From a virus, in IMG/VR virus record IMGVR_UViG_3300045988_088999, positions 48,961 through 112,960 of that record: a stretch of 64,000 bases of DNA. One strand, given 5' to 3'. Below the pieces are notes generated by a model. That model did no database searches. It saw only the letters and a list, made by a program, of their open reading frames with translations, and was not told where the DNA came from. Within the stretch, counting starts at the first letter, position 1; each line of letters starts with the position of its first letter. A program made the position numbers and the translations under genes. Below are positions 1-47,517 of this stretch, in pieces.

Positions 1-407
1 TGAATACTGATGGAAAATATGTGTTTGAAATCAAAGAACGCACTATCGTTCCTACGCTTACTTCACAAGTAGCAGTTAGTAGCGATATTAACGCAAGACG
101 TATTGTATTTAAAGTACCAGCAACCATTGATGGATACGATGTAAGGGACTCTAATTTTACTGTTAGATGTCTTAATGCTGCTGGTGCGCTTAATGAATAT
201 AGTATGACCAATAAGAGGGTCGTAATTGAAAATAATGCGACCTATATTTATGTTGAATGGATAATGGACGGCTCTGTTACACAAAAAAGCGGCGTTGTAA
301 AATATGATGTGTCTATTTACGATGCAACTAAATCAATATATGCTTGGCATAGCTTGCCATCCACATTCAACGTGGAAGCTGGTATATCAGAGATTAACTC
401 TGATTAA
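1..407 (+). CDS. tail-fibre N-terminal domain protein (5' end lies outside window)
   Basis: Frame is open from nt 3. Residues NTDGKYVFEIKERTIVP...VVKYDVSIYD align with the N-terminus of the 1019-aa fibre ORF at 4007 (LNGTYIFEIVNRTIVP...VTYDVSIYD). Confidence 0.6.
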   Translation, partial: NTDGKYVFEIKERTIVPTLTSQVAVSSDINARRIVFKVPATIDGYDVRDSNFTVRCLNAAGALNEYSMTNKRVVIENNATYIYVEWIMDGSVTQKSGVVKYDVSIYDATKSIYAWHSLPSTFNVEAGISEINSD

Positions 408-435
408 AATATTAACTCTTTTGGAGGATTAAATT

Positions 436-1644
436 ATGGGAAAACTTTTAAGAGATGAAACTTTTGTTGCTGCTATGAATAAGCAGAACGCCATACTGGA
501 AGTTCTTGCTGCCGATAAGATACAGCAGATGTCTGGTAACTGGGCAGAAGTTGCTACTCTAGTTCGTGCTGGTTATGCAGAATATGTTTATGATTTTGGC
601 GACCAGTTTAAGGATAAGTGGACTGATACCGCTAACTCTAATAAGGAATATGCGAACTATAATTGGCACGTTGGTCATTTCGGCAATTACTTACTTCAGG
701 ATGGCGAAACTGTACCGGGTATGACTATTCAGGCACACTATGCGCATCCGTTTGGTGTACAGTTTAGTCACCAGAGAGCATTTTTGAAGTGTGATACCGA
801 ATTAGCCGCTGGTACTTACTACTTTACGATAGAAACTAAGTGGGGTAACAATGTTGCTGCTGGTGATATTGTCAGCTTCACTCTTACTAAGCCGGTTCCT
901 GCTGGTGGACGTATTTCAGGTTGCTATGGAGCACCTGACCAAGTAAAAGCTAACTGGCGTATCTATACTTGGGCGGCAGATGGTAAGACTAAGGTTGAAG
1001 ACAACATTACTCCGACATTTACCGCATCTGGTACGAATCTTGGTACTATGAAGCATGATAAGCGTAACGGCAACTTGAACTCCTGTCAGGAAATGGCTTA
1101 TGGATGGAACAGGTGGAAAACATCCGCACTACGTCAGTACCTAAATAGCTCTGCTACTAAGGGTAACTGGTGGGTAGCACAGGATGAGTGGGATATTGCA
1201 CCTGACGAGTTGGCATTCCATGACGGTTTCTTGACTGGTATGCCAGCTGACCTTTTAGATGCTATCAAGCCTGTTAAGATTGTTACCTATCCAAATACCG
1301 TAAATGACGATATTGCTGGTAATACCCCTGACGTTACCTACGATAAGGTATTCTTGCCAGCACTTGAGCAGATTTATGTAAATCCTCAGAAAGCTGGCGA
1401 GGGAGATGCTTGGGAATACTGGAAGCGTGTTGCTGGCACCACCACTCCGTTGGCTCAGTGGGGTACTTATCCTCAGATGATTACCTATGCTATTGAGAAT
1501 ACTTCTAGCGCACAGGGTGTGCGCTTGCGGTCTGCTTATCGTGGCAATGCTATTAGTGCGTGGTATGTCAACTCTAGCGGTTACGTCAACGGCTACGGCG
1601 CGAGCAACTCGCATAGGTTCTCGCCCGCTTGTGTCATCTGCTAA
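436..1644 (+). CDS. DGR variable (target) protein, putative receptor-binding fibre component with a C-terminal variable region
   Basis: GGAGG RBS upstream of the ATG. The last ~40 codons (nt 1513-1634) are an adenine-mutagenised copy of the repeat at 2259-2380. A stem-loop follows the stop. Confidence 0.85.
   Translation: MGKLLRDETFVAAMNKQNAILEVLAADKIQQMSGNWAEVATLVRAGYAEYVYDFGDQFKDKWTDTANSNKEYANYNWHVGHFGNYLLQDGETVPGMTIQAHYAHPFGVQFSHQRAFLKCDTELAAGTYYFTIETKWGNNVAAGDIVSFTLTKPVPAGGRISGCYGAPDQVKANWRIYTWAADGKTKVEDNITPTFTASGTNLGTMKHDKRNGNLNSCQEMAYGWNRWKTSALRQYLNSSATKGNWWVAQDEWDIAPDELAFHDGFLTGMPADLLDAIKPVKIVTYPNTVNDDIAGNTPDVTYDKVFLPALEQIYVNPQKAGEGDAWEYWKRVAGTTTPLAQWGTYPQMITYAIENTSSAQGVRLRSAYRGNAISAWYVNSSGYVNGYGASNSHRFSPACVIC
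1513..1634 (+). repeat. DGR variable repeat (VR)
   Basis: 122-bp alignment with 2259-2380. The 16 mismatches all fall where the other copy has A (A to G/T/C). Homology stops after ...cccgCttgtGt, which fits an IMH boundary. Confidence 0.9.
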
Positions 1645-1653
1645 TCCTAGTAA

Positions 1654-1690
1654 TCTTGCACGAATACTTTCGTGCAAGATTTTCTATTTA
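1654..1690 (+). terminator. 11-bp stem-loop (tcttgcacgaa/ttcgtgcaaga) plus T-tract, 20 nt downstream of the VR
   Basis: Perfect inverted repeat followed by ttttctattt. Could serve as a rho-independent terminator and/or the hairpin that DGRs need downstream of the VR for homing. Confidence 0.7.
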
Positions 1691-1783
1691 GATTAAAAGC
1701 AGTAATTTCCTTAGAGAAATACTGTTGTCCGAATATTAACAATAAAAGCAAATATATAAAAATTAAATTAAGGAGGCCGCACA

Positions 1784-2080
1784 ATGTCTGTTCCGGCTGG
1801 TCAAAGAAAAGAAAATAGACTAGAAGTCGTTATGCAAGCCAGAGAGCTTGCAGTCTACACTTTAAGAATCACATCTAACAAGAATGTATTTATTCCTGAT
1901 TACGATGAATCGGTCAAACTAAAAATCCAAGATTCCGCATTGACCATCTTTAATAATCTTATGGATGCAAACAACATTAGAGTTGACGATAATGTTGGAA
2001 GATGGCAGGAGCGCGATAAGCTCCAAAGAGATGCGGCAAAAGCGTGTAATACACTATTAAACCTTATATACTTGGCATAG
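1784..2080 (+). CDS. avd: Avd-like DGR accessory protein (small helical protein)
   Basis: 98 aa, AGGAGG RBS. Sits between the target gene and the TR, as in canonical target-avd-TR-RT cassettes. Avd-like size and helical composition. No strong motif, so the call rests on position. Confidence 0.5.
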   Translation: MSVPAGQRKENRLEVVMQARELAVYTLRITSNKNVFIPDYDESVKLKIQDSALTIFNNLMDANNIRVDDNVGRWQERDKLQRDAAKACNTLLNLIYLA

Positions 2081-2258
2081 ACGTTATATCATCTAAGAGC
2101 CAGCCGTATTAAGTATTGGTCTGAATCTGTCATTTCAGTCAGAGGTTTAATTCGTAAGTGGAATCACAGCGATTGTACTCGGTATGGACATCTCCTTAAA
2201 GAATCTAAAGAAAAAGACGAAACTTAATTTTTATATATATTTGGGTTATAACCTGATT

Positions 2259-2380
2259 CAGAATGTGCGCTTGCGGTCTGCTAATCGTGGCAATGCTAAT
2301 AATACGTGGAATGTCAACTCTAGCGGTAACGTCAACAACAACAACGCGAGCAACTCGAATAGGTTCTCGCCCGATTGTAT
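2259..2380 (+). repeat. DGR template repeat (TR)
   Basis: Invariant partner of the VR. The frame reading NVRLRSANRGNANNTWNVNSSGNVNNNNASNSNRFSP is rich in AAC (Asn) codons, and each is altered in the VR. Confidence 0.9.
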
Positions 2381-2572
2381 TTGAAAGTCCCTAATAAAAA
2401 ATCTTACGCATAGCGCAAGCTAGGTTCTCGACTTCAAACACAAGGAGGTTATAACCCTGTTATCTTGCTAAAAAAAATATAAAAGATAACTAAACCACTC
2501 TATGCCGATGGCGTTGGTTTTCGAGCCAGTACGCCTATATACGGCTTAGTTTAGTTGTTGTGTCAAAGTTTA
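2381..2572 (+). other. TR-RT spacer, probable structured part of the DGR template RNA
   Basis: ~190 nt non-coding stretch between the TR and the RT start, where DGR spacer RNA lies in characterised elements. Confidence 0.4.
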
Positions 2573-3526
2573 ATGAATAATAATTAGGAATCGAATCAAG
2601 TAGTAAATGTCCTAGACTTCGAGCACCTACTTGATTCTTTATATAAGTGCAAGAAAAATGTTAGCTGGAAAGAATCTGTCGCTAATTTCTATATTCATGG
2701 AATCGAACAGGTTCTTAAACTAGAAGAACAACTTGCAAACGGAACATATCAACCACGTCCAACTAAGACTGTTCATATCACTCATCCGAAAGAAAGAATT
2801 GCTGTAAGCATAGCTTTCAGAGACAGAGTATATCAACGTAGTCTTAATGATAATATAGTGTATCCGTTAATGACTCGAAGTTTTATTTATGATAATTGTG
2901 CTTGTCAAAAGGGTAAAGGAACCGATTTCGCTAGAGGCCGTTTAAAATGTCATCTGCAAAGATGCTATAGAAAGAATGGTCTTGATGCTTGGGTTCTGCA
3001 ATGCGACATTAAGCACTATTATGATAATATGCGGCATGATACAACAAATGCCTTGTTCAGAGAGAAATTACCAGTAGAATATGCAGATAGAGTCTGTAGA
3101 ATATTAAATGAACAATATCTTGGTGATACAGGGTATAATCCCGGTAGCCAAGTTGTTCAGATTGCTGGTATTTCTGTTCTGGATAGACTTGACCATAAGA
3201 TTAAAGAACGTATGCACATTAAGTATTATATTCGTTATATGGATGACTTTATTCTTATTCATCACGATAGAAATTACTTAATCAAGTGTATGCACGAGAT
3301 TCAAGAAGAACTAGCTAAAATTGGTCTTGAATTGCATCCTAAGAAAACCAAACTCTATAGAGTTGGTAAAGGTATTCCATTCTTAGGATTTAAATTCAGG
3401 CTTACCGAAACCGGTAAGGTCGTTATGTCAATTCTTGGAGATAATGTTAAGAATGAAAAGCGTAAATTACGTAAAATGGTTAAACTTGTTGTAAAAGGTC
3501 GCAGAACCAAAGAAAAAATAGATTAG
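2573..3526 (+). CDS. DGR reverse transcriptase, with an in-frame TAG at codon 5
   Basis: RT motifs sit upstream of the tool's GTG at 2858: FEHLL..YKCKK, TYQPRP, FRDRVYQRSL, FIYDNCACQKGKGTD, PGSQ, RYMDDFILI, ELHPKKT, FLGFKF. The frame is open from 2588. ATG 2573 (MNNN) is separated from it only by TAG 2585-2587. Confidence 0.85.
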
Positions 3527-3623
3527 TGCTATAGTTGTTGGGTTGCTCATGCAGAGCATGGTAATTCATATAAACTAATATAGCGAATGAATAAATTCTA
3601 CGATGATTTATGGAGGTAGAATT

Positions 3624-3803
3624 ATGATTTTTCAGAAGGCGATTATGAATCCTCACGAGGAGAAGATGGTCGAATATCGCAATGCTTAGATTAGCAATCA
3701 ACAGTCTTTGATTGAGTATATTGCTGTTATGAGTGATATTGACCTACCTGTTGAAGAAGAGAAAACCGCTAGTATGGGCGGCATGGAAGATATGGAGGGC
3801 TAA
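3624..3803 (+). CDS. small hypothetical protein (59 aa only if the in-frame TAG at 3687-3689 is read through; otherwise a 21-aa peptide)
   Basis: Strong GGAGGT RBS 6 nt before the ATG. The frame stays open after the TAG until the TAA at 3801. Confidence 0.35.
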
Positions 3804-3806
3804 TAT

Positions 3807-3959
3807 ATGACCGATATGGAACTGTCCGCACACGGAAAGAAAGCTAAGTATTACTACGATTCTGGTTTCTGGACTAAGAAAATGGTTTATAACGTAACCA
3901 AAAAGGGCTGGATTACTCCAGAAGAGTACGAGTATATTACTGACGATAAGTACATTTAA
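3807..3959 (+). CDS. xkdX: XkdX-like small tail-associated protein
   Basis: 50 aa; FWTKKMVYNVTKKGWITPEEYEYITD matches the XkdX family signature (W.K.MV...V.KGWIT.EEY.EIT). GGAGGG RBS. Confidence 0.7.
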   Translation: MTDMELSAHGKKAKYYYDSGFWTKKMVYNVTKKGWITPEEYEYITDDKYI

Positions 3960-3966
3960 TAAGTTG

Positions 3967-3999
3967 GGTGTAGCATTAGCTACACCATTATTTTTAATT
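3967..3999 (+). terminator. rho-independent terminator
   Basis: 8-bp stem ggtgtagc/gctacacc with loop atta, then attatttttaattt. Confidence 0.7.
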
Positions 4000-4006
4000 T
4001 AGGAGG

Positions 4007-7000
4007 TTGAATAGCTTGAACGGAACTTATATTTTTGAAATTGTAAACAGAACAATCGTTCCAAGCGCAACTGAAGAATTGGCTGTTGTAAATGATAATG
4101 ATTCAAGATATATTACCTTTAAGATTCCATCAGTGATTGATGGTATTGATATTACCGATAAGATTCTTACTGTCAGATATGTCAATTCTCTGAATCGTTA
4201 TGACCAGTTTTTCTGTAATAGCAGAGAGGTTATTACGGAAGGTAACGAGCAGTTTGTCCTGTTCGACTGGGTTCTTGATTCTAATGTCACAAGTGCTAAA
4301 GGCACTGTAACTTATGATGTATCAATATATGATACAAATGATATGACTAACGTATCACAATATATTCTTCACACAAAACCAGCTACTTTTCAGGTTGAGG
4401 AAGGATTACTTGATACCGGTGCGCCTATCGAAGATGAGAATACACTTCAGGCAGCTATTGATAGTTTTAATGCTATCGCTGCTAAATATTACCATGATAC
4501 GCTTGCAGCATCAAAAGCGGCTCAAGCGGCTGCTGATGCTGCCGCTAAAAGTGCTGCATCGTTAAAGGTAGATACTACACTTACACTTTCTGGCTATGCC
4601 GCTGATGCAAAAGCTGTCGGAGATAGATTGACCGGTAAAGCAGAATCGTCTGAAGTAACCTCTATTAGAAGTGATTTACAGAATGAAATTGACAGAGCTA
4701 CTGATGCGGAAAGTCAGCTAAAGGAAGATTTAGAAATCAGCAAAATTTTTAAAACTTCAAACATTCTTTCAGCCAGTGATTATAATTTTAAAAAGAATTA
4801 TTATTACAGTCCGTCTGTCAACGATTTTGTTTCCAGAAATGGAAATATTGCGTATAATCAGCCTATTTCGGCTGGTGAAAGCGAAGTATATGTGTCAAAT
4901 GCAAGTATTGCTGTATTTTTGGACAAAGACAACAGAGTAATTAGTCATAATGAATCAAGTACAACTGTGGAATCATTTGCAGTTTACACAACGCCAGCCG
5001 AATGTAAATCAATAATGGTTAGTTGGTATTATACAGCAGATATTAACAAATTATACTTTGCACAATACAATTCTGGCGCACTCTACACAAAAAGAAATGC
5101 ACTAACAAAAACATTGTTTTCGAACATTGATGCCTCACAAGCTAATGTAAATGGGTCAAGATTAACAGACGCGGTGCGTGGCAAAATACTTGAAGGTAAT
5201 ACAAACATAGGTAAAACTTATGACGTAGACATTAAACAGGGCGTTAATTTTATCATTAAAATCAACCCCAAAAATGCAAACGTAACAATTAGCGAAATTA
5301 CAAAAGACGGTTCCCAAAACTACATTAACTATAATCAGCATATTTCCAACAATGGGTTATACAGATTTACTGCAAGCACAGATATTTTAGGGCTTAGATT
5401 CACAGACATGACAGAAGAAATTAAATTTTCTGTGTATCTTCCAAACGATGACAACAAAGCACTTGAACTTTTTTTCCCGGAGCAATTCCGTCCTGATAAA
5501 AATATCAAAGAAAGAAATACCGTTTCTGGGTATAGAATTAACGCACTGGAACGAAAAATTGACACCGCCGCAACTGGAAATATTACTTTCTATGATGTCA
5601 GCGGATGCGAATATATCCGAATCAGCCCATTCAGATTTTACGGAACGCATGGGTACGCATTTTTTTACAACAACGGCTTTGTGCCTAACATCACAACTCA
5701 CATTGAACAAGTAAAAATTATTGATTCAAAAGAAACATTAAGTTTCCAAGACACGGTTATCAAAGTGCCAGATGGATGCAACTATTTTGGCATGACGTGG
5801 CTAAATGAAAATAATTACGTTCCAAAAGTCACTAAAATGCTATTTGCAGAAAAAGAAAATTCTAATCTACAAGACTTTTATGGAATTTTCAAAAATTTTG
5901 GCAACCAAAATTGCTATAGTTTATTGTCACTTATTGCTAATTCAACAAAATCCACTAACTTGACATCTCAAACCCTTAAAAAACTAACAAAAAATGACAT
6001 CTCATTTGGACACATGGGCCAACTTGTAATTAAAGATGGCATGTGCTATGCAAGCTTTTTGCAAAACAGTGGAACGGATGGAGAAGCCCTATACAGTGAA
6101 ACAAGCGAACTTGTCCTTGCAAAATTTTTGCTTTCAGATACACTGTCGGATAGCTTTTCGCCTGATACAAACACTCAAGTCAAAGCAATAGGAAAACTCG
6201 GAAGTGCTTGTGCAGGACATATTGCAAAATCAATATATAAGGATAATGCAATGTGTTTAATTGGCAATAAACTGTATATTACATTTATGTTTATTTCTGA
6301 GACTGATTCTGACGCACACCTGTTTAGAAAAGTATATAATATCAGTTCTGACACATTTGAGGACGAAGTAGCTTGCGAAATTGAATATAAGGGTAAAACA
6401 TATCCGTTTACAAACAGCACAATCAACATGATTTACGGTGAAAATCATTTAAATCAAAATGCTAGTGGAATCATGGAAATTGTAAGCGAATGGAGCAAAT
6501 ACAATTCGGAATACTATGCAACCGGAATCAACGGTGACAAGCCAAACAACGGGTTTATTATTAAAACGTCTGATTTTAAGAAATATTATTTTGTTGATGT
6601 ATTGCCATTCAATGACAACGGAATAGCAGAAATTGCATCTATTGTGTACGATAACAAGTTGTATGTCGCGTGTCGTCAAAATTACGGGCTTCCATATCTA
6701 CTTTTAGCTTTTTATAACCTACAAAACGGAACATGGGGTACACCATACAGGATTCAAGACGGGAATGTAAGACCTTGGTTTTACAAAAAAGACGGGGCGT
6801 TATATTTAATTAACACAATCGAAGAGTATTACCGCAGATATACTAATATTTCTAATGTTTTAACATCCGGCTATCTTGGTGCATCAGCACCAATCAAAAT
6901 AATCGCTACATTATGTAATTGTGGAAATTATATTGCAACATCGGAGTATAACAAGAATACATACTATGTGTGTACATATAAAGGAACAATTTATTTTGGA

Positions 7001-7066
7001 ATATTAGACGTTATCAAATATGACGAGACTATCGTTAATAACAAATTGCTAAAACTACTGGAATGA
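4007..7066 (+). CDS. tail fibre protein (1019 aa); the true start is probably the TTG at 4016
   Basis: N-terminal domain paralogous to ORF 1-407. Ala-rich coiled segment (AAKYYHDTLAASKAAQAAADAAAKSAAS). Long beta-rich C-terminal part. The AGGAGG RBS directly abuts the first TTG. Confidence 0.75.
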   Translation: MNSLNGTYIFEIVNRTIVPSATEELAVVNDNDSRYITFKIPSVIDGIDITDKILTVRYVNSLNRYDQFFCNSREVITEGNEQFVLFDWVLDSNVTSAKGTVTYDVSIYDTNDMTNVSQYILHTKPATFQVEEGLLDTGAPIEDENTLQAAIDSFNAIAAKYYHDTLAASKAAQAAADAAAKSAASLKVDTTLTLSGYAADAKAVGDRLTGKAESSEVTSIRSDLQNEIDRATDAESQLKEDLEISKIFKTSNILSASDYNFKKNYYYSPSVNDFVSRNGNIAYNQPISAGESEVYVSNASIAVFLDKDNRVISHNESSTTVESFAVYTTPAECKSIMVSWYYTADINKLYFAQYNSGALYTKRNALTKTLFSNIDASQANVNGSRLTDAVRGKILEGNTNIGKTYDVDIKQGVNFIIKINPKNANVTISEITKDGSQNYINYNQHISNNGLYRFTASTDILGLRFTDMTEEIKFSVYLPNDDNKALELFFPEQFRPDKNIKERNTVSGYRINALERKIDTAATGNITFYDVSGCEYIRISPFRFYGTHGYAFFYNNGFVPNITTHIEQVKIIDSKETLSFQDTVIKVPDGCNYFGMTWLNENNYVPKVTKMLFAEKENSNLQDFYGIFKNFGNQNCYSLLSLIANSTKSTNLTSQTLKKLTKNDISFGHMGQLVIKDGMCYASFLQNSGTDGEALYSETSELVLAKFLLSDTLSDSFSPDTNTQVKAIGKLGSACAGHIAKSIYKDNAMCLIGNKLYITFMFISETDSDAHLFRKVYNISSDTFEDEVACEIEYKGKTYPFTNSTINMIYGENHLNQNASGIMEIVSEWSKYNSEYYATGINGDKPNNGFIIKTSDFKKYYFVDVLPFNDNGIAEIASIVYDNKLYVACRQNYGLPYLLLAFYNLQNGTWGTPYRIQDGNVRPWFYKKDGALYLINTIEEYYRRYTNISNVLTSGYLGASAPIKIIATLCNCGNYIATSEYNKNTYYVCTYKGTIYFGILDVIKYDETIVNNKLLKLLE

Positions 7067-7112
7067 TAGCCAACCTGATAACTAAATGAGATTTTAGCAT
7101 ACTTATAACGAG

Positions 7113-7748
7113 GTGATAATTATGGTTAAAACTTATAGCGTAAAAAATCAAGGTAATGTCAAATTATCTACAAACTTTACCGTAAAAGAGTTCGCCTGCA
7201 AAGATGGTTCCGATTCTGTTCTTATCGACATTGCTCTCGTTGAAGTCCTACAAAAAATTCGTGAACATTTTGGCAAACCAGTTATAATAAATTCTGCGTA
7301 TCGTACACCAGAGCATAATCGTAGGGTCGGCGGTACTTCCGGTTCATATCACGTAAAAGGTATGGCCGCTGATATTCAGATTTCTGGTGTATCAGCAGTT
7401 GAGATTGCTTATTTTGCTCAGACTATTACTAACGGTGTTGGTGTTTACTACTATGGTAACACTAACTTTGTTCATGTAGATACTAGACAAAATAGAACTT
7501 TCTGGCTATGTGCGCAAGCTGGACGTTACGAATATTACAGAACTGATTTAATGCCAATAATCAAACGTGGAACAAATGTTGGCAAGGCTTCTGCTGTAAA
7601 GTTTGTTCAAAAGAAACTTGGTTTACCTATTGACGGTCAATTTGGAAAAAATACTGAAAATAAGGTAAAAGAGTTCCAGAAAGTACATGGTTTAACTGCT
7701 GACGGAATTGTTGGAATGAACACTTGGAAAGCAATGTTTGTTAGATAA
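7113..7748 (+). CDS. endolysin: M15-family zinc peptidase with C-terminal peptidoglycan-binding domain
   Basis: SAYRTPEHNRRVGGTSGSYHVKGMAADI matches the peptidase M15 (YcbK-like) motif. The C-terminus LGLPIDGQFGKNT...GLTADGIVGMNTW is a PG_binding_1-type repeat. Confidence 0.75.
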   Translation: MIIMVKTYSVKNQGNVKLSTNFTVKEFACKDGSDSVLIDIALVEVLQKIREHFGKPVIINSAYRTPEHNRRVGGTSGSYHVKGMAADIQISGVSAVEIAYFAQTITNGVGVYYYGNTNFVHVDTRQNRTFWLCAQAGRYEYYRTDLMPIIKRGTNVGKASAVKFVQKKLGLPIDGQFGKNTENKVKEFQKVHGLTADGIVGMNTWKAMFVR

Positions 7749-7759
7749 TCTAAGGAGAA

Positions 7760-8077
7760 ATGAATATGACTATTGAACTGTTTTGTACTTTGCTTCTTGC
7801 TTTTGGTACTCTGACTACAATCGTTGTTGAGTTCCTAAAGAAGATTCTTACTGGTCTAAAGATTAACTACAACACATCCGCTGTTGCTCTTGGCACTGGT
7901 GGACTTGTTGGTGTAGTTGGTACTTGTGCGTACTTTGTAATGGCAAATATCGCATTTACTCCACAGAGTATCATGTGGATTATTTTTGAAGGTATCTGTG
8001 TCATTATGGGTTCACAGCTAGGCTACGATAAGATTGTGGCAATAATTAAACAAATAACTGCTAATAAACGGGCATAA
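7760..8077 (+). CDS. holin-like membrane protein
   Basis: 105 aa with 2-3 predicted TM helices and a charged C-terminus, immediately downstream of the endolysin. Confidence 0.6.
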   Translation: MNMTIELFCTLLLAFGTLTTIVVEFLKKILTGLKINYNTSAVALGTGGLVGVVGTCAYFVMANIAFTPQSIMWIIFEGICVIMGSQLGYDKIVAIIKQITANKRA

Positions 8078-8093
8078 TATAATAGGGATAGTA

Positions 8094-8135
8094 ACTAAAA
8101 ATGTTACTATCCCTATCTTTTTCGTCTTTAGGCCA
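8094..8135. terminator. bidirectional rho-independent terminator at the strand switch
   Basis: 12-bp stem agggatagtaac/gttactatccct, loop taaaaat, T-rich on both sides. Separates the + late block from the - block. Confidence 0.8.
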
Positions 8136-8158
8136 TATTGAACATTTTATAAGACCTC

Positions 8159-8419
8159 TTAGCACTCACCGCAACATTCACCACAGCAATGCGCTTTTAC
8201 GAGTTCTCCAATCTTATTCTGTGCAGTCTTAAATGCTTCATTAAAATTTTCAATAGCGGATTCTGCATCGACATCCTTGTAATCAGAACCACCATCTGCC
8301 CACATAATAGTCCATCCGTGTTTGCCAGCCTCAATTCTTACAGTCAGCCCAAAATTATCTTTGTAACTTTCACGCAATTCAACTTCACTACTGGGCATCA
8401 TGCCAAACATTCGTTTCAT
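8159..8419 (-). CDS. hypothetical protein with Cys-rich C-terminus (HCCGECCGEC)
   Basis: ORF with GGAG RBS. Confidence 0.5.
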   Translation of the reverse strand: MKRMFGMMPSSEVELRESYKDNFGLTVRIEAGKHGWTIMWADGGSDYKDVDAESAIENFNEAFKTAQNKIGELVKAHCCGECCGEC

Positions 8420-8441
8420 TTTATAGGCTCCAACCTCTTAT

Positions 8442-9296
8442 TTACTTACCCTTGGTAACGACTGTATCGGCCCCCTGTACAGTAACCCAACCATGCTTCA
8501 GACGAGCTTCTGCTTCCTTCATCTGAATCAGCTCAGGAGTGATAGACTCGGAAAGCACCTTATTTGCATTAGCCTCGGCCTGTGCTTCAATCATCTTAAC
8601 GTCAGCTTCTGCCTGTGCCTTAACTTTATCAGTCTCTGCCTGAGCCAAAGCTGTCTGCTTATTCAGCTCTGCAATCTCTGCATCCTGTTTCGCCTGTTCC
8701 TTTGCACGAATCTTCTGCATCAGGGTATCGTCAGGCTGTGCATCAACAATTAAAGCAGAGGTGACGTTGATACCATATTCATTAGACAGCTTTTCATTCA
8801 GATATTCAGTGATTGCGGCATTAACACCAGCACGGTCATCGGAATAAATCTGCATAACACTAAACTTTGGAGTAACTTCCTTGACATAAGCAATAATGTC
8901 GTTCTGAATCTTGCTCTCCATCAAGCTTTCGCCGTTCATTCCGTTAAACTTTGTGTAAAGTTCAACAATACGATTTGCGTCAAAGCTATAGTTTACAGTC
9001 AGGTTGATAGCAATAGTGCCACCATTTGCGGGCGCATCAATGTGCCAATCTGCGTGTTCTTTAGCGCCATAATCCTCTGCACTATTAGAAAATACAATTC
9101 TCTGCTGACTAATAGGGAAGTTGGCAACGTGTTTCATGGGACTCATAAAGTGCCAACCCTGAGAAATCGTAGTCTGCTCAACACCCTTTGCAGAGTAAAC
9201 AACACCAACATAGCCGACAGGAACACGGACAACACAAGTTACCACAATAATCAGTGCGATAACTGCGGCAACAATACCAGAAATAATTTTCTTCAT
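8442..9296 (-). CDS. SPFH/band-7 (flotillin/prohibitin-like) membrane protein
   Basis: N-terminal TM helix, SPFH-like core, then an EA-rich coiled coil (AKEQAKQDAEIAELNKQTALAQAETDKVKAQAEADVK). Confidence 0.65.
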   Translation of the reverse strand: MKKIISGIVAAVIALIIVVTCVVRVPVGYVGVVYSAKGVEQTTISQGWHFMSPMKHVANFPISQQRIVFSNSAEDYGAKEHADWHIDAPANGGTIAINLTVNYSFDANRIVELYTKFNGMNGESLMESKIQNDIIAYVKEVTPKFSVMQIYSDDRAGVNAAITEYLNEKLSNEYGINVTSALIVDAQPDDTLMQKIRAKEQAKQDAEIAELNKQTALAQAETDKVKAQAEADVKMIEAQAEANANKVLSESITPELIQMKEAEARLKHGWVTVQGADTVVTKGK

Positions 9297-12580: not shown

Positions 12581-12864
12581 ATACGCTTATTAGATGTTGG
12601 GCCAAAACAAGACTCACGCTCTTTAAAACCGTACTTGGACAAGTCGCCATCGGAATCGGTTATACATACGTGAATTGCATTTTTATCAATAATTGTATAC
12701 ATGTTACCGTGTTTGAGAGGTCTATTATCATACTCACAGTATGGAAGCCAACCTTTTCTGAATCCTTTGTTAGCATCATATACTTCGTTATCGAAGTAGT
12801 TTTCGATAATCACACTATCCATTGGAACTGTATAACAAAGAACTCCTCTTACGATATTATTCAT
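12559..12864 (-). CDS. hypothetical protein
   Basis: ORF of 101 aa. Confidence 0.45.
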   Translation of the reverse strand: MNNIVRGVLCYTVPMDSVIIENYFDNEVYDANKGFRKGWLPYCEYDNRPLKHGNMYTIIDKNAIHVCITDSDGDLSKYGFKERESCFGPTSNKRIWVNTEV

Positions 12865-14327
12865 AAAATACTACCACCACTTAAATTAAATAATTCGGAT
12901 GCTTTTGCATACAGGGCATCATGTTTATTCTCGATTAAATCTAAGAAATACAGATGCAAAAGATGGTTTAAAGTTTTACGGATGCGGATACCTTCAAAGC
13001 CAATTTCCATAAGGTCATCTCCGTTAATGTCAAGGTCTTTTACAGTGAATACATTTTCGTCCTTAACATCATAGAAGATGCTCATAGAGTCGTAGCATTG
13101 TTCCCAACTGTTTGAATAGCAAGCAGGAATATTACTCTGCATCAGCATCAAATCAAGCATACGTTCTGTATCTTCTTTACCAAGTTTGTTGATAAGAACG
13201 CGCATCTTATATTTGCTCGTAGGGACAAATTCAAAAGACTGCTTGATGATACGACACACAGACTCCATAGTAGCGTTGTCGAACTTTAGGTCTTTCATGA
13301 CGTTATGTGCGATAGCACTTGCCGCAGTTGCAATTTCTTCCAAGGTCAGATGCTTGCGAATTTCGCTTTCAAACATTGTGAGATTACGGAACAGTAACGC
13401 ATAAGAAGTAATCTTATCGCGGTGATTATCACCTTCAATAAATTCATGCGCAATATCTGTATAAAGGTCGAAGCGACTCGGATTTTCTGTATATGAGATA
13501 TTTCCTGTTAGATTATTAAGTTCTGGGATAATTTCTACAAGAATATCGCTAAACTTCATCATAATATCACCGAACTTATATGTTGTAATCATCTTATCAA
13601 GTTCTGCGCGGATTCTCTCTTTAGATACACATTCCAGTTTCTTTTTGCAGACACGCATACCATAGGCCGTGTCTTCGTCAATATTGTAACCAAAGACACA
13701 AGCAAATCGCATAGCACGAAGAATCCGCAAGCCATCCTCTTGAAATCTAAGAACAGGATTGCCAACACATACAATCTTCTCTGCATGGAGACACCAGAAA
13801 CCGTTGTAGGGGTCAACAAAGCCGCGTTCTTTATTATACGCAATAGCGTTAATACTAAAATCACGTCTGCTTAAATCTTCCTCAATGGTTTTAGCGAACT
13901 TTACGCTGTCTGGATGCCGACCGTCAGAATAATCACCATCAATGCGGAACGTGGTAATTTCATACCCTACGCTATCAATCATAACAGTGACAGTACCATG
14001 TTTGATGCCAGTTTCGATAATCTGCTCATTGTTGAATACAGATTCAATCTGCTCCGGTGTTGCAGACGTGGTAATGTCAAAATCTTTTGGAGTTCTCATC
14101 CGAAGCATATCTCTGACACAACCACCTACAAGATATGCTTCATGTCCTGCATTAGATAAAGAATCTAACAAAAACATAGCGGTATTGAATCGCTTATCCT
14201 TCTCAATTTGTGCCAAACAACGCTTCTGGAACGATTCAGAAATAGCATAATTATTGCTATTTAATTTTCTACTCGTAAATCCCTCAACAGGGATAGTATT
14301 AGGTAGCTCCTGTGTTCTAAAACTCAT
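12861..14327 (-). CDS. cca: tRNA nucleotidyltransferase (CCA-adding enzyme / poly(A) polymerase family)
   Basis: YLVGGCVRDMLRMRTPKDFDITT...GTVTV...YEITTFRIDGDYSDGRHP...EEDLSRRDFSINAIA matches the class II head-domain signature GG.VRD...D.D...RRDFTINA. Confidence 0.85.
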   Translation of the reverse strand: MSFRTQELPNTIPVEGFTSRKLNSNNYAISESFQKRCLAQIEKDKRFNTAMFLLDSLSNAGHEAYLVGGCVRDMLRMRTPKDFDITTSATPEQIESVFNNEQIIETGIKHGTVTVMIDSVGYEITTFRIDGDYSDGRHPDSVKFAKTIEEDLSRRDFSINAIAYNKERGFVDPYNGFWCLHAEKIVCVGNPVLRFQEDGLRILRAMRFACVFGYNIDEDTAYGMRVCKKKLECVSKERIRAELDKMITTYKFGDIMMKFSDILVEIIPELNNLTGNISYTENPSRFDLYTDIAHEFIEGDNHRDKITSYALLFRNLTMFESEIRKHLTLEEIATAASAIAHNVMKDLKFDNATMESVCRIIKQSFEFVPTSKYKMRVLINKLGKEDTERMLDLMLMQSNIPACYSNSWEQCYDSMSIFYDVKDENVFTVKDLDINGDDLMEIGFEGIRIRKTLNHLLHLYFLDLIENKHDALYAKASELFNLSGGSIL

Positions 14328-35640: not shown

Positions 35641-38600
35641 TTACATAACCACAAACTCATAATCAGTAATATAAAAATATCCACGCTTATTTTTATACCA
35701 ATCACGAATCTTAATTACATCGTTCTTATTGAACTTACACTTTTTATACAGTTTATAAGGAATCGTGTAAGAGCTACGCTTACCAGAACCGATAGACTGT
35801 GCATCAATGATAACGCCCCAAGGTTCAACAGCTTCACGCTGTTTCATAACTTTCATTTCAAGAATGACAATTTTAGGTCTATCTTCGGATTTGTCAGTCT
35901 TAATGCCAATGTAACCCATATACTCAAGCTGATTAGCAATCTTGGTTTTAATGTCAACATCACCAAGATTCATTGTCATAATGTACTGTTCAATCTCGTT
36001 CAAGATATTATGGCAATTCAGCTTATTAAACTGCTTTTCAGTTTCGTTAGCATTGCGTTTAATAATGCTCATTGTAATCTCGTCTGGAATCTTGCTCTTA
36101 GCAATCGTTTTTGCTTCGCCCTTCTTAAAGAACTGGAACTGCTTAAAGATTGTTGCCAACTCTCTGCAAGTACCGAACTCTTCGAAGTAATCAAGCTTAA
36201 TCAAAGTCTCAACTTGGTCACGAGGCATACCAGATGCCTGAATATCATACAGTAGGTCGGTAAACGTCTTGTAAGAATTATCCTTCAAAGAATACAAGAA
36301 ATCAGAATATCCTGCATTTAATCCCTTGATACTACTCGTACCTTTATAAATACTATTCGTAGTAAGGTCATAAAAGTATTCTGCCTTCGCATGTCTGAAC
36401 TTAGGCGCAAGAATCTTTACCTTGCGACTATTTGCGTATTCAATAGCTTCTGCTGTCTTGTTATCGTCACCGTTCCATGCGTTAAGGCAAGAAGTCAAAT
36501 ACTGTAACGGATAATGATAACGCAGATATGCACATTCATAGCTAATGCAAGAATAGCTCAAACTATGAACCAGCGAGAATGAATATCGTGTAGCGTCGAG
36601 AATACACTGTAAGAACGGATTGATAATCTTGTCAGACTGCTCATCGGTTAAATGATATTTGACCTTTGCGTTCTTTTCCCAACCTTCCTTAATAATAGGA
36701 AGCTGGTCACGTGTACCAAGTTTCTTACCGATAATCTTACGAAGCTTATCAGCTCTCAAGAAATCATAACCACAGAACTCCTGAACAAAAGCCATCTGAG
36801 GTTCCTGCATAATTGCATAGCCCATAGAAGAACCAAGCAAATCATCAATCTCTCTGATTCCTGTTTTAGATACGATGCCGTTCGTCGCATCATCATAAAC
36901 TCCCTTGCCACAGGGACGAATAAGAGCATTGATGAATGTCAGCAAATCCAAACGTGTCATATTAGGAATCTGCTTCTTAATCTTGTTGTAAACCTCTGGC
37001 GACAGCATCTTATCAACTGTACGCTGACCGTAGTTGGAGTTCATCTGGAAAATCAAAGATGTATCTTCTTTAATACTATTCCAGACTGCATCATCCTCAA
37101 AGTCAATCGTCTTAGGTGATAATCTCTCGATACCAGCTAACTTACAGGTTTCATTGATGATACCCACGTTATCGAGGCCAAGGGCATCCTGCTTCGTAAA
37201 ATTAAGGGAATCAAGCTCCTTCATATTGATGCAGGAGACAGGATAGGGGTCATCTTTTAGATAACACAGACCAAATTCTGATTCAATGTCATGGTCAGAA
37301 ACAACAACACCAGACGGATGAGAACCGATACTAACGATAGTGCCAATAACAATATCAACGTACTTGAACAACTCTGGATATTTCTTACGCCAGCTATCAT
37401 CAATGGTAACAATCTTTTCTTCATCGACTGCTACTTCATGAACAGCTTTTGCAATCGTATCAACCTCATCGAGAGGCATATCCAATCCACGTCCAATATC
37501 ACGAATTGCACCCTTTAATGCGATTGTGTTGAATGTAATAATTTCACAAGTCTTGACATTCGGAAGGTCTAGGTGGTCGTTCAACATCCAGAACTTCAAT
37601 TTATCACGGTCTTTTGCCGAGTTATCCATATCAACGTCAGCCAAGCTGTACTTAGATTTATCCATGAATCGCCAGAAATAAAATCCATATTTCAATGGAT
37701 TAACTTCGGTCACACCCAAAGCGTACAAAGCCAAGGAACTAGCGGCGCTTCCACGTGCAGGGCCTTGCCACATATCATGCGAATGTTCCCAACGCACAAT
37801 ATGGTCTTCGAGAAGAATAAAGTCGGTAGCGTTCAGAGCCTTAAATGTGTCAATCTCCTGCTCCAAACGCGAAGTTACTTCTTCTTTTGAAAAACCTTCT
37901 TTGATAATCGGGTCGATAGTTTCCGGTGCAAACAACTTCTCACGGAGGACTTTTTCACCATCCTCATAAATCTTTGCATACTTAAAACTTCTGTCAAGTT
38001 CAAAAGGTTCAATCATATCTGCCATAACATTTGTGTTATTGATTGCAGACATATATTCTTCTTCACTGAGGGCATCTTGTGTTCTATATGCCTCGACAAG
38101 CTCATCGTAGGTTTTCCATGTCAAATCCCAGCCGACTTCATCATCAAAGAAAACTCCCTTACCACGCTGTAGTGCGCTACGACCAAGTTCATGCTCTGCG
38201 TTTAAACAGTGCGTATCAGTACCAGCAATCAATCTAAGGCCAGTTTCCCTAGACAAACTTGCCAAGTATCTATTATACTCAAACTGCTTCTGCGTATTGT
38301 GGTGTTGAACTTCCAAGAAACATCTATCTTTGTGTCTTGTTAAGAATCTAAGATAAGACTCCTTCGCACTTTCAGTTCCCCTGCACAATGCAGATGCGAC
38401 ACAGGCAGTAGTAATAATAATGTTATTACTCGTGGAGAACAGTTCAGCGAACGTAATTCGAGGTGCATAGTAATAATGACCATCAACACGATTAAATGCC
38501 TTACCCTGCAAGACGTTAAGTTCCTTAACGCCCTCCCAGTTTCTAGCAATCAAAACGCAGTGGTAATTATCACGAATCTTTTCCTCGCCCTCATTTGGAA

Positions 38601-38832
38601 TGCGCTCTGTAAGATATGCCTCCATTGCATGAATGTATTTCATGCCAGCGGCTTCAATGGCATCTTTCTTATGAACCCATTCAAAGATATTGCCGTGCTC
38701 TGAAAAAGCCATAGCAGTCATTCCACACGCTTTTGCTTTTTCTATGTACTGCTTATACGTAGTAACTGAGTCAATATTAGTGACCGCATTACTCAGCATA
38801 GTATGTAAGTGGTAGACTGTATAATTTGCCAT
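35641..38832 (-). CDS. DNA polymerase III alpha-like replicative polymerase (PHP domain + Pol IIIalpha core)
   Basis: N-terminal PHP motif YHLHTMLSNAVTNID...AFSEHGNIFEW. 1063 aa, same operon as the primase-helicase. Confidence 0.75.
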   Translation of the reverse strand: MANYTVYHLHTMLSNAVTNIDSVTTYKQYIEKAKACGMTAMAFSEHGNIFEWVHKKDAIEAAGMKYIHAMEAYLTERIPNEGEEKIRDNYHCVLIARNWEGVKELNVLQGKAFNRVDGHYYYAPRITFAELFSTSNNIIITTACVASALCRGTESAKESYLRFLTRHKDRCFLEVQHHNTQKQFEYNRYLASLSRETGLRLIAGTDTHCLNAEHELGRSALQRGKGVFFDDEVGWDLTWKTYDELVEAYRTQDALSEEEYMSAINNTNVMADMIEPFELDRSFKYAKIYEDGEKVLREKLFAPETIDPIIKEGFSKEEVTSRLEQEIDTFKALNATDFILLEDHIVRWEHSHDMWQGPARGSAASSLALYALGVTEVNPLKYGFYFWRFMDKSKYSLADVDMDNSAKDRDKLKFWMLNDHLDLPNVKTCEIITFNTIALKGAIRDIGRGLDMPLDEVDTIAKAVHEVAVDEEKIVTIDDSWRKKYPELFKYVDIVIGTIVSIGSHPSGVVVSDHDIESEFGLCYLKDDPYPVSCINMKELDSLNFTKQDALGLDNVGIINETCKLAGIERLSPKTIDFEDDAVWNSIKEDTSLIFQMNSNYGQRTVDKMLSPEVYNKIKKQIPNMTRLDLLTFINALIRPCGKGVYDDATNGIVSKTGIREIDDLLGSSMGYAIMQEPQMAFVQEFCGYDFLRADKLRKIIGKKLGTRDQLPIIKEGWEKNAKVKYHLTDEQSDKIINPFLQCILDATRYSFSLVHSLSYSCISYECAYLRYHYPLQYLTSCLNAWNGDDNKTAEAIEYANSRKVKILAPKFRHAKAEYFYDLTTNSIYKGTSSIKGLNAGYSDFLYSLKDNSYKTFTDLLYDIQASGMPRDQVETLIKLDYFEEFGTCRELATIFKQFQFFKKGEAKTIAKSKIPDEITMSIIKRNANETEKQFNKLNCHNILNEIEQYIMTMNLGDVDIKTKIANQLEYMGYIGIKTDKSEDRPKIVILEMKVMKQREAVEPWGVIIDAQSIGSGKRSSYTIPYKLYKKCKFNKNDVIKIRDWYKNKRGYFYITDYEFVVM

Positions 38833-47429: not shown

Positions 47430-47517
47430 TGGTGCGCCCGGTGGGACTTGAACCCACGATAGGAATAATCCACCCCGGATTAAAAGTCCGGTGCTATACC
47501 AACTTAGCTACGAGCGC
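47430..47517 (-). tRNA. tRNA-Lys (anticodon TTT) with an unusual 17-nt variable region
   Basis: Acceptor GCGCTCG/CGGGCGC (one G.T), anticodon arm CCGGA-CTTTTAA-TCCGG, T-arm GTGGG-TTCAAGT-CCCAC. The variable region GGTGGATTATTCCTATC is far longer than in normal Lys tRNAs. Confidence 0.6.

What the first reader, a model, noticed from the sequence alone, without database searches (positions are those of the whole stretch)
436..3526. Complete diversity-generating retroelement (target-avd-TR-RT) in the tail-fibre locus
The last ~120 bp of the 402-aa gene (VR, 1513-1634) and a non-coding copy 750 bp downstream (TR, 2259-2380) differ at 16 positions. Every difference is where the TR has A, with changes to G, T or C, and there are no other substitutions. 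The TR frame is full of AAC codons that become variable codons in the VR: NANNTWNVNSSGNVNNNNASNSNRF becomes NAISAWYVNSSGYVNGYGASNSHRF. A small helical ORF (Avd-like) sits between the two repeats. Right after the TR is an RT with the DGR-type motifs FIYDNCACQKGKGTD, PGSQ, RYMDDF and ELHPKKT. The cassette lies between two tail-fibre paralogs and an XkdX gene, so it most likely diversifies the phage receptor-binding protein. This is the clearest functional system in the window.
Basis: partly seen in the sequence, partly recalled or inferred. Interest (0 to 1): 0.9.

Follow-up and report, generated by a model that had tools for sequence, protein, structure and literature searches.

The report
Gut-phage DGR with amber-recoded genes
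This is a genuine, recently active diversity-generating retroelement that rewrites the tip of a phage surface protein; it is an ordinary example of a well-known system, except that its two enzyme genes can only be translated if the stop codon TAG is read as glutamine.

Summary
VR 1513-1634 and TR 2259-2380 align without gaps and differ at 16 sites. All 16 are TR adenines, at codon positions 1 or 2.

The interpretation as a complete DGR (target, avd, TR, RT) is supported:
- The RT's closest solved relative is the Bordetella phage DGR RT.
- The Avd model is a four-helix bundle like Avd.
- The target's C-terminal domain (DUF6273) has a C-type-lectin fold.
- In four near-identical phage contigs the TR is almost invariant, while the VR varies at 30 of 35 TR-adenine columns.
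- Substitutions private to one contig's TR are mirrored in its own VR.
- The TR is embedded in an RNA that maps onto the published BPP-1 DGR RNA (template:primer duplex, two-nucleotide linker, stop duplex, stem-loop). Compensatory changes across relatives support this.

The gene models need correcting. avd and RT contain in-frame TAG codons, and the RT has no usable start without reading one. Each internal TAG at a position shared with a homologue outside the phage's own lineage is CAG or CAA in at least one close relative, so TAG encodes Gln. Avd is 147 aa, not 98. The RT is about 348-380 aa.

I found no CUA suppressor tRNA in the sequence I could reach.

Amber codons in DGR RT genes and DUF6273 DGR targets are both already published. 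This is a new member of a known kind.

The parts
21..407 (+). 128-aa protein homologous to the N-terminal about 130 aa of the 1019-aa tail fibre. Possibly a virion-anchoring module next to the DGR target.
   Evidence: BLASTP 40% identity, E 1e-31; phrog_25888
436..1644 (+). DGR target gene, 402 aa, no in-frame TAG. The C-terminal part is a DUF6273 domain with a C-type-lectin fold.
1513..1634 (+). VR (variable repeat), codons 360-400 of the target. The part predicted to be copied from cDNA ends at about 1628. 1629-1634 (TTGTGT) is an IMH-like end.
1652..1681 (+). Inverted repeat: 13-bp stem, 4-nt loop TACT, starting 18 nt after the VR. Candidate DGR target-site hairpin/cruciform; it also looks like a terminator.
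   Evidence: A hairpin sits at the same place, with unrelated sequence, in L001, L006, L008 and L010, mostly without a T-tract. Compare PMC3240598.
1736..1763 (+). Sigma-70-like promoter match upstream of avd (weak evidence).
   Evidence: 9 of 12 consensus positions; matches are not enriched over shuffles
1784..2227 (+). avd, 147 codons, with TAG at 2078-2080 (codon 99) read as Gln.
   Evidence: phrog_3206 'Avd protein of DGR' spans residues 2-144. All 147-aa homologues have Q99. AF2 four-helix bundle with helix 4 at residues 106-134. TM 0.81-0.88 to 4dwl, 8ub7 Avd chains, 2gsc and 2rld.
2243..2254 (+). 5' strand of the long-range 'stop' duplex of the DGR RNA. Pairs with 2446-2457.
   Evidence: MFE fold, z -3.3. 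Compensatory changes in five lineages.
2259..2380 (+). TR (template repeat), 35 A, 14 AAY codons in the VR frame.
   Evidence: Almost invariant in relatives.
2403..2419 (+). Small stem-loop just downstream of the TR (CTTACGC-ATA-GCGCAAG), in the position of the Avd-binding stem-loop of BPP-1.
   Evidence: My reading of the sequences is that L003 repairs the A.C mismatch to A-U and changes C-G to U-A.
2433..2445 (+). Sp primer strand UUCAAACACAA (pairs with TR 3' end 2375-2385) plus GG linker. Predicted priming adenosine A2443.
   Evidence: Conserved ACACAAGGA motif at 2438-2446. TR:Sp pairing co-varies across lineages. Architecture as in 10.1101/2023.10.23.563531. The priming site itself is inferred.
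2446..2457 (+). 3' strand of the stop duplex.
2459..2490 (+). Stem-loop directly after the stop duplex, followed by CUAAAC (adenosines).
   Evidence: Short stem-loops followed by A-rich sequence occupy the same place in L001, L008 and L010.
2573..3715 (+). DGR reverse transcriptase. ATG 2573. TAG read as Gln at 2585, 3524 and 3581. The ancestral stop position is TAG 3617 (348 codons). If that TAG is also read through, the frame ends at TGA 3713-3715.
   Evidence: phrog_1423 E 1e-76; RVT_1; 8ub7_A E 3e-20 over residues 8-343
3624..3803 (+). 59-codon ORF conserved downstream of the RT in related cassettes. TAG at 3687 is CAG in four relatives. Function unknown.
3807..3959 (+). XkdX-family gene (context).
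   Evidence: Pfam PF09693 E 5e-10
4007..7066 (+). 1019-aa tail-fibre-like gene (context), no TAG.

Best explanation
This is a complete, recently active diversity-generating retroelement (DGR) of a large, uncultured phage. Related IMG/VR contigs are 115-150 kb. Homologues come from gut and rumen samples, and the host is probably a member of the Clostridia.

Proposed mechanism. [quoted passage not shown] 1. An RNA spanning about 2240-2570 is transcribed.
2. The RNA folds so that the segment just upstream of the TR (2243-2254) pairs with spacer 2446-2457, forming the 'stop' duplex. The 3' end of the TR (2375-2385) pairs with spacer 2433-2443.
3. The Avd-RT complex primes cDNA synthesis in cis from the spacer adenosine next to that duplex (predicted A2443). 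It copies the TR starting at A2374 and misincorporates opposite adenines.
4. The cDNA replaces VR 1513-about 1628 at the 3' end of the 402-aa target gene. The downstream hairpin (1652-1681) probably helps.
5. This re-randomises up to 14 AAY codons, about 15^14 protein variants. The affected residues lie on the C-type-lectin-fold tip of a protein encoded among tail-fibre and lysis genes.

Second point. avd and RT carry in-frame TAG codons that are decoded as glutamine (genetic code 15). Without amber suppression no RT can be made, and Avd loses its fourth helix.
For: A-specific mismatches
- 16 of 16 TR/VR differences are at TR adenines, all at codon positions 1 or 2.
- About 25 related cassettes show the same A-only pattern.

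Activity in the population
- Among the window and three 95-99% relatives, the VR varies at 30 of 35 TR-A columns but only 5 of 87 other columns.
- Four of those five co-vary with the same contig's TR.

Proteins
- RT: phrog_1423 at 1e-76. Best PDB hit is the RT chain of the DGR RNP, 8ub7_A, at 3e-20 full length. The GxxxSQ and YMDD motifs are present.
- Avd: phrog_3206. AF2 gives a four-helix bundle with pLDDT 87, TM 0.81 to 4dwl.
- Target: DUF6273. The fold matches the DGR variable protein TvpA and C-type lectins. DUF6273 is a published DGR target domain with the VR at its C-terminus (PMC11792537).

RNA
- 12-bp long-range duplex in the MFE fold, z -3.3.
- The same duplex exists with different sequences in L001, L006, L008 and L010. 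Seven of 11 pairs show compensatory changes. Cognate duplexes average -16.1 kcal/mol against -6.3 for non-cognate.
- The TR-3'end:spacer duplex co-varies: UUGUUUA/UAAACAA, UUGUGU/ACACAA, CUG/CAG.
- The layout matches BPP-1: Sp47-56:TR117-129, 2-nt linker, Sp59-70:avd369-379, stem-loop, adenosines.

TAG = Gln
- Under the standard code there is no start codon between TAG 2585 and GTG 2858.
- TAG/CAG/CAA polymorphism is seen at avd codon 99, RT codons 46, 318 and 337, and orfX codon 22.
- All 147-aa Avd homologues have Q99, and 98-aa truncated gene calls exist for TAG alleles.
- Family and PDB alignments run across the TAG positions.
- Long tail genes of relatives carry in-frame TAGs at strain-specific positions.
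- All five contigs share RT TAG codon 5 yet have different VRs, so homing continued in TAG-bearing genomes.
Against: - No tRNA with a CUA anticodon was found in the window or in the flanks of near-identical contigs.
- TAG still ends 3 of 50 long ORFs. The RT's ancestral stop position is itself a TAG (3617), so termination there is unclear.
- The VR-downstream hairpin is not GC-rich, and its loop (TACT) is not the GRNA consensus of PMC3240598. In this lineage it also fits an ordinary terminator.
- No distinct IMH/IMH* pair is recognisable. Only 6 nt of homology follow the predicted cDNA start.
- The virion location of the target is inferred from synteny only. One PHROG hit is labelled 'Hoc-like head decoration'.
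- No experiment or read-level data was available.
Confidence: 0.93

Rival explanations
1. The cassette is a decaying, now inactive DGR. The TAG codons are nonsense mutations that have killed avd and RT, and the TR/VR pattern is a fossil of past activity.
For: - Under the standard code, avd is truncated at residue 98 and the RT has no start before its catalytic motifs.
- No suppressor tRNA was found.
- Each TAG differs from CAG by one transition.
Against: - All six in-frame stops across avd, RT and orfX are TAG. There is no TAA, no TGA and no frameshift.
- Protein sequence downstream of each TAG stays conserved and aligns with PHROG profiles and bRT.
- TAGs also occur inside 540- to 2100-codon tail genes of relatives.
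- Contigs that share the TAG alleles have different VRs. L005's private TR substitutions have been copied into its VR.
Confidence: 0.04
2. The RT belongs to a group II intron, a retron or a defence-associated RT. The repeat pair is a coincidental duplication of the gene's 3' end.
For: NCBIfam's best (sub-threshold) hit is the group II intron RT/maturase, at 91.8 bits against a cutoff of 300. Drt and retron models give weak hits.
Against: - All those scores are far below the family cutoffs.
- The best solved relative is the DGR RT.
- No Rfam intron or retron RNA is present in 1-9000.
- The mismatches are A-only, an Avd gene is present, and the DGR RNA architecture is present.
Confidence: 0.01
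3. The DGR is active, but its target is a capsid-decoration or mucus-/host-tissue-adhesion protein rather than the receptor-binding tail protein.
For: - phrog_10993 'Hoc-like head decoration' matches residues 218-401 at E 5e-15.
- Published discussions of gut-phage DGR targets raise non-receptor roles (PMC10743442).
Against: - The gene lies after the tape-measure and tail genes.
- It directly follows a 128-aa homologue of the tail-fibre N-terminus.
- It precedes XkdX, a 1019-aa fibre and an endolysin.
Confidence: 0.2

Closest known systems
Bordetella phage BPP-1 DGR (mtd-avd-TR-brt)
   Same: - Gene order target-avd-TR-RT.
- A-specific mutagenesis of a C-terminal VR on a C-type-lectin fold.
- Avd four-helix bundle.
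- RT is the closest solved relative (8ub7_A).
- Same RNA layout: TR-3'end:spacer primer duplex, 2-nt linker, upstream:spacer stop duplex, stem-loop plus adenosines.
- Hairpin downstream of the VR.
   Different: - Protein identities are low. Avd is not detectable by sequence against the PDB.
- The target is DUF6273, not Mtd.
- The hairpin is AT-rich, with a non-GRNA loop.
- Only about 6 nt of IMH-like homology.
- The spacer stem-loop is enlarged: 8 bp with a 16-nt A-rich loop.
- avd and RT need UAG read as Gln.
DGRs of Faecalibacterium prophages with DUF6273 targets (Lelie, CP11, Roos, Pioen; PMC11792537)
   Same: Gut Clostridia phages. The DGR target carries DUF6273 with the VR at the C-terminus of the domain.
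   Different: I did not compare the sequences directly. As far as I read, amber recoding is not reported for those prophages. The present phage is much larger (at least 115 kb) and has about 22 tRNAs.
[quoted passage not shown]
   Same: A TAG-recoded phage whose DGR RT gene contains in-frame amber codons. C-type-lectin target in the structural gene block.
   Different: - Those are Crassvirales and carry CUA suppressor tRNAs; most lack avd.
- Here the phage is unrelated (XkdX, M15 endolysin, Pol III alpha).
- avd is present and itself recoded.
- No suppressor tRNA was found.
Stop-codon-recoded (code 15) gut phages (10.1101/2021.08.26.457843)
   Same: TAG read as Gln in late genes. Early and replication genes are free of in-frame TAG. 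A standard-code host is predicted.
   Different: Recoding is sparse: 0-4% of Gln codons in tail genes. Within the window it is concentrated in the DGR accessory genes (19%). DGRs are not mentioned in that paper.

Membership tests
Diversity-generating retroelement | TR/VR repeat pair whose differences are (almost) all at TR adenines | tested here: met
   16 of 16 mismatches at TR A. The same pattern holds in about 25 related loci.
Diversity-generating retroelement | Adjacent RT of the DGR clade (motif 4 GxxxSQ, YMDD) | tested here: met
   GYNPGSQ and RYMDDF are present. Best PDB hit is DGR RT 8ub7_A at 3e-20, against 3e-10 for group II. I did not build an RT phylogeny.
Diversity-generating retroelement | Accessory protein Avd (four-helix bundle of the Avd/IVS family) | tested here: met
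   phrog_3206 E 1e-8 over residues 2-144. AF2 model matches 4dwl_D, 8ub7_B/C/E, 2gsc and 2rld at TM 0.73-0.88. Pentamer formation was not tested.
Diversity-generating retroelement | VR at the C-terminal end of a C-type-lectin-fold (or Ig) target domain | tested here: met
   [not shown]
Diversity-generating retroelement | Invariant TR, diversified VR, one-way TR to VR transfer in related genomes | tested here: met
   30 of 35 A columns vary against 5 of 87 non-A columns. Four of those five mirror the contig's own TR change.
Diversity-generating retroelement | DGR RNA elements flanking the TR (template:primer duplex, stop duplex, stem-loops) | tested here: met
   Predicted folds plus compensatory changes, compared. 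Structure and priming site are predictions.
Diversity-generating retroelement | GC-rich hairpin/cruciform with 4-nt GRNA loop 4-34 bp downstream of the VR | tested here: inconclusive
   A 13-bp stem with a 4-nt loop lies 18 nt downstream and is conserved in position across lineages. But it has only 5 GC pairs, its loop is TACT, and it is followed by a T-rich tail like a terminator.
Diversity-generating retroelement | IMH/IMH* pair at the 3' ends of VR and TR | tested here: inconclusive
   Only TTGTGT (VR) against TTGTAT (TR) lies beyond the predicted cDNA start. The GC-rich GGTTCTCGCCCG lies inside the copied part.
Diversity-generating retroelement | Adenine-mutagenic reverse transcription and retrohoming shown biochemically | not testable with these tools
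   Needs an experiment.
Genetic code 15 (TAG = Gln) recoded phage | In-frame TAG in conserved genes, aligned with Gln in homologues | tested here: met
   Five sites show TAG/CAG/CAA polymorphism. Q99 is present in all Avd homologues. Tail genes of relatives carry in-frame TAGs.
Genetic code 15 (TAG = Gln) recoded phage | Phage-encoded suppressor tRNA with CUA anticodon | tested here: inconclusive
   None among the 13 + 9 tRNAs found. None in any flank examined. About 17-27 kb of the roughly 150-kb genome type was not seen.
Genetic code 15 (TAG = Gln) recoded phage | TAG not used as a terminator | tested here: inconclusive
   TAG ends 3 of 50 long ORFs. Two of those are followed by another stop within 3 codons. 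The RT's ancestral stop is a TAG.
Group II intron / retron RT | Family-level RT score and an associated structured RNA (intron domains, msr/msd) | tested here: not met
   Group II RT scores 91.8 bits against a cutoff of 300; retron 28.9 against 235. No Rfam hit in 1-9000.

The most novel reading that the evidence does not exclude
The amber codons may not be incidental. They may act as a gate that restricts DGR mutagenesis to the phase of infection in which UAG is decoded.
- TAG makes up 4 of 21 Gln codons in avd+RT, against 1 of 62 in the other + strand genes of the window.
- One TAG sits at RT codon 5 in all five related contigs, so no RT at all is made before the code switch.
- No canonical CUA tRNA is detectable in most of the genome, so the decoding itself might use a non-canonical suppressor.
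Probability: 0.2. Interest if true: 0.6.

Novelty: new member of a known kind. Interest (0 to 1): 0.35.

Why it matters
As a DGR it adds little. Thousands are known in gut phages, and DUF6273 targets and amber-containing DGR RT genes are both published.

It matters in three practical ways.
1. Standard-code gene calling splits avd and RT. The databases already hold 98-aa 'Avd' fragments. DGR finders will therefore miss or mis-annotate cassettes like this one.
2. The family gives a clean natural covariation data set for the DGR RNA elements seen in the BPP-1 cryo-EM structure. It includes a predicted priming adenosine in a distant Clostridia-phage lineage.
3. If amber codons really gate RT synthesis, that would be a simple way of timing hypermutation.

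Tried and rejected
- Additional VRs. I searched both TR ends across the whole window, allowing 3 mismatches. Only the one VR was found.
- Rfam on 1-9000. No relevant hit.
- A misreading of my own. I first took the only GenBank phage hit (MT835664) for a match to the TR-RT spacer. It is actually a match to the RT motif region, because query coordinates were offset by 435. That record proved useful as a standard-code relative with the same gene order.
- Naive genome-wide ORF-length comparison under different codes. Uninformative.
- Suppressor tRNA hunt.
  - ARAGORN at relaxed thresholds and with introns, plus Rfam, on the window.
  - I then walked the related IMG/VR contigs in 10-kb steps in both directions. 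This used all viral and metagenome scans.
  - It found a second tRNA array (Met, Asn, Gln-UUG, Pro, Asp, Ala, Leu, Ser, Ser) but no CUA tRNA.
- The look-up of encoding contigs with a window protein. Not on record.
- Sequence searches of the target and Avd against the PDB. Nothing meaningful; fold searches were needed.
- NCBIfam. It has no DGR-specific RT or Avd model.
- Megablast of 25 kb of the replication region against GenBank phages. No match.
- Pseudogene reading of the TAGs. Considered and rejected (see rival explanations).


Full report
**1. The observation**

An ungapped comparison of 1513-1634 (the last 122 nt but ten of the 402-codon ORF 436-1644) with 2259-2380 gives 16 mismatches. 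In every case the downstream copy has A: 9 A>G, 5 A>T, 2 A>C. All lie at first or second codon positions. The downstream copy has 35 A in 122 nt, so the chance that 16 random mismatches all fall on A is about 2e-9 (my arithmetic). Both ends of the repeat occur nowhere else in the window, so there is one VR within these 64 kb. In the VR frame the TR has 14 AAY codons.

**2. The gene models are wrong because TAG is a sense codon here**

*What the standard code gives*
- The 98-aa ORF (1784-2080) stops at a TAG, and the frame runs on to TAA at 2225-2227.
- The RT frame has ATG at 2573 and TAG at codon 5 (2585). It is then open for 313 codons, with further TAGs at 3524, 3581, 3617 and 3692 before TGA at 3713-3715.
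- Between 2588 and 2858 there is no ATG, GTG or TTG in frame. Under the standard code the N-terminal 95 residues of the RT could not be made.
- The small ORF 3624-3803 also has one in-frame TAG.

*Family matches across the TAGs.* With TAG translated, PHROG 'Avd protein of DGR' matches residues 2-144 of 147, and the RT PHROG matches residues 12-341. Both matches run across the TAG positions.

*Comparison with close relatives.* This is decisive. The search for related loci returned four IMG/VR contigs with 95-99% identical cassettes (L002-L005), and more distant ones.

| Site | TAG in | Gln codon in |
|---|---|---|
| avd codon 99 | window, L002, L005 | CAG in L003, L004 |
| RT codon 46 | L002 | CAG or CAA elsewhere |
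| RT codons 318 and 337 | window, L002, L003, L005 | CAA in L004 |
| orfX codon 22 | window | CAG in the other four |

RT codon 5 is TAG in all five contigs. It lies in an N-terminal extension that does not align with more distant RTs.

*Database homologues.* All 147-aa Avd homologues have Q at position 99. The database also holds 98-aa truncated calls (P0144, 41 members), which are the TAG alleles.

*Other genes.* Tail genes upstream of the window in relatives carry in-frame TAGs at strain-specific positions. These include a 2116-codon tape-measure frame and frames of about 1300 and 540 codons.

*Conclusion.* TAG = Gln (code 15). TAG 3617 sits where the standard-code relative L001 ends its RT (…LWRE*). 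The RT is therefore 348 aa, plus a poorly conserved tail of 4-32 aa if that TAG is also read through.

**3. Is it a DGR?**

- *RT.* RVT_1. The best solved relative is 8ub7_A, E 3e-20 over residues 8-343, against 3e-10 for a group II intron RT. Entry 8ub7 is titled 'Diversity-generating retroelement (DGR) ribonucleoprotein reverse transcriptase'. NCBIfam group II, retron and Drt models all score far below their cutoffs.
- *Avd.* The AF2 model was built on P0121, which is 99% identical and has Q99. Its pLDDT is 87. Helices span 10-30, 42-63, 71-102 and 106-134. It superposes on BPP-1 Avd (4dwl_D, TM 0.81), on the Avd chains of 8ub7, and on the IVS-family pentamers 2gsc and 2rld. Stopping at residue 98 would delete helix 4.

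**4. Is it active?**

Among the window, L002, L003 and L005 the TR is nearly invariant. The VR differs at 30 of the 35 TR-adenine columns and at only 5 of 87 other columns. Four of those five are positions where that contig's own TR carries the same substitution. That is the signature of one-way TR-to-VR copying. All these contigs carry the RT codon-5 TAG, so copying has continued in TAG-bearing genomes. The same A-only pattern is seen in about 25 more distant cassettes of the family.

**5. The RNA**

*The fold.* Folding 2228-2590 gives a 12-bp long-range helix, 2243-2254 with 2446-2457, that encloses the TR (z -3.3).

*Covariation of the long-range helix.* Each divergent lineage has the equivalent helix with a different sequence:
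- GGGUAAUAGUU / AACUAUUAUCC
- GGGAUAUAGGCU / AGCCUAUACUCCC
- GGGAUGUAGGUU / AACCUCAUCCC
- AUGGAGUGAGGCU / AGUCUCGCUACCAU

Seven of 11 consensus pairs show double-sided changes. Cognate duplexes average -16.1 kcal/mol against -6.3 for non-cognate combinations.

*The primer duplex.* Two nucleotides (GG) upstream of the helix's 3' strand lies a conserved ACACAAGGA motif (2438-2446). Its 5' part pairs with the 3' end of the TR, and this pairing co-varies:

| Lineage | TR 3' end | Spacer |
|---|---|---|
| window | UUGUAU | ACACAA |
| L003 | UUGUGU | GCGCAA |
| L008 | UUGUGU | ACACAA |
| L010 | UUGUUUA | UAAACAA |
| L006 | CUGUAU | ACGCAG |

*Comparison with BPP-1.* This matches the layout of the BPP-1 RNP (10.1101/2023.10.23.563531):
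- Sp47-56 pairs with TR117-129, with A56 priming and G117 templating first.
- A two-nucleotide linker follows.
- Sp59-70 pairs with the segment upstream of the TR (the 'cPRT Stop').
- A short stem-loop and adenosines follow.

*Inference for this element.* By analogy I predict priming from A2443 and a first templated base at TR A2374. That would place the 2379/1633 difference outside the cDNA, in a 6-nt IMH-like end. This step is inference.

*Other RNA features.* A small stem-loop at 2403-2419 lies where BPP-1 has its Avd-binding stem-loop. It shows a compensatory change in L003.

**6. The target site**

An inverted repeat (13-bp stem, loop TACT) starts 18 nt after the VR. Every lineage examined has a strong hairpin at that position with an unrelated sequence, mostly without a T-tract. 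This fits the DGR hairpin/cruciform of PMC3240598. In the window lineage the stem is AT-rich, the loop is not GRNA, and a T-rich tail follows. A plain terminator cannot be excluded.

**7. Context**

- *Genes on the + strand:* a 128-aa homologue of the fibre N-terminus, the target, avd, TR, RT, orfX, XkdX, a 1019-aa fibre, an M15/PG-binding endolysin, and a small ORF (7760-8077) that may be the holin.
- *Genes on the - strand:* replication and metabolism genes and 13 tRNAs.
- *Relatives:* contigs are 115-150 kb.
- *GenBank:* no GenBank phage is close.
- *Hosts:* target homologues occur mostly in Clostridia MAGs and in one Lachnospiraceae isolate.

**8. What remains open**

- No CUA suppressor tRNA was found in the window or in the flanks I could reach. 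The 10 kb beyond the last IMG/VR locus was inferred from an 88%-identical metagenome contig, assuming it is collinear. About 17-27 kb of the roughly 150-kb genome type was not seen (note).
- TAG accounts for 4 of 21 Gln codons in avd+RT. It accounts for 1 of 62 in the other + strand genes of the window (Fisher p 0.013) and 9 of 240 in a relative's tail genes. The numbers are small but suggest enrichment.
- Amber codons in DGR RT genes have been reported in Zeta crAss-like phages (PMC12386605). The recoded-phage survey I read does not mention DGRs.

**9. Verdict**

Its gene boundaries need correcting for TAG = Gln. It is a new member of a known kind and of moderate-to-low interest. The possible gating of mutagenesis by amber suppression is the only lead worth pursuing.

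Noticed in passing
window 47430-47517 and 47657-47744 (- strand): Two 88-nt tRNAs have long, class-II-like variable arms but carry anticodons UUU (Lys) and UGU (Thr). Lys and Thr tRNAs normally have short variable arms.
   Followed up: partly
window 49086-49157 (- strand): A degenerate tRNA-like sequence (GAA anticodon, C at position 33, unpaired acceptor end). Rfam finds it (41 bits); ARAGORN at default settings does not.
   Followed up: partly
window 53221-54720 (- strand); L099 2262-2362, L100 1369-1468: The window encodes a DUF2828 + DUF7788/VWA protein. In relatives, the second tRNA array has a sub-threshold YrlA (Y RNA-like) match between tRNA-Gln and tRNA-Pro. Together these could be a phage Ro/Y-RNA-like pair.
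   Followed up: no
[not shown]
   Followed up: no
window 21-407 and 4007-7066: A stand-alone 128-aa protein is 40% identical to the N-terminus of the 1019-aa fibre and sits directly upstream of the DGR target. It looks like a split fibre: an anchor module plus a separate variable head.
   Followed up: partly
window 35641-38832 and 38845-41811 (- strand): The Toprim-domain ORF (988 aa) and the Pol III alpha ORF (1063 aa) lie in the same frame, separated by a TGA and a few codons. Reading through TGA would give a 2063-codon frame. Probably coincidence.
   Followed up: no
window 45814-46344 (- strand): One of only three long ORFs that end in TAG. Read-through would add 62 codons.
   Followed up: no
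window 12861-14327, 51630-53162, 57959-59320, 62870-63991 (- strand): Auxiliary genes in the window: a CCA-adding/poly(A) polymerase family enzyme, an SPFH/flotillin protein, an adenylosuccinate synthetase and an RNA ligase.
   Followed up: no
window 3617-3715: If the TAG at the RT's ancestral stop is read through, the RT gains a 32-aa tail whose coding sequence overlaps orfX by 92 nt. The tail length differs among close relatives (4, 12 or 32 aa).
   Followed up: partly
L101-L104 (about 37 kb upstream of the window start in relatives): Relatives carry a second tRNA array (Met, Asn, Gln-UUG, Pro, Asp, Ala, Leu, Ser, Ser) next to ClpP-like and HU-like genes. Some have a roughly 730-nt insertion after tRNA-Met.
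   Followed up: partly
L036 161-1249: A tyrosine-recombinase-like ORF sits just upstream of the tape-measure gene in relatives and contains no in-frame TAG.
   Followed up: no
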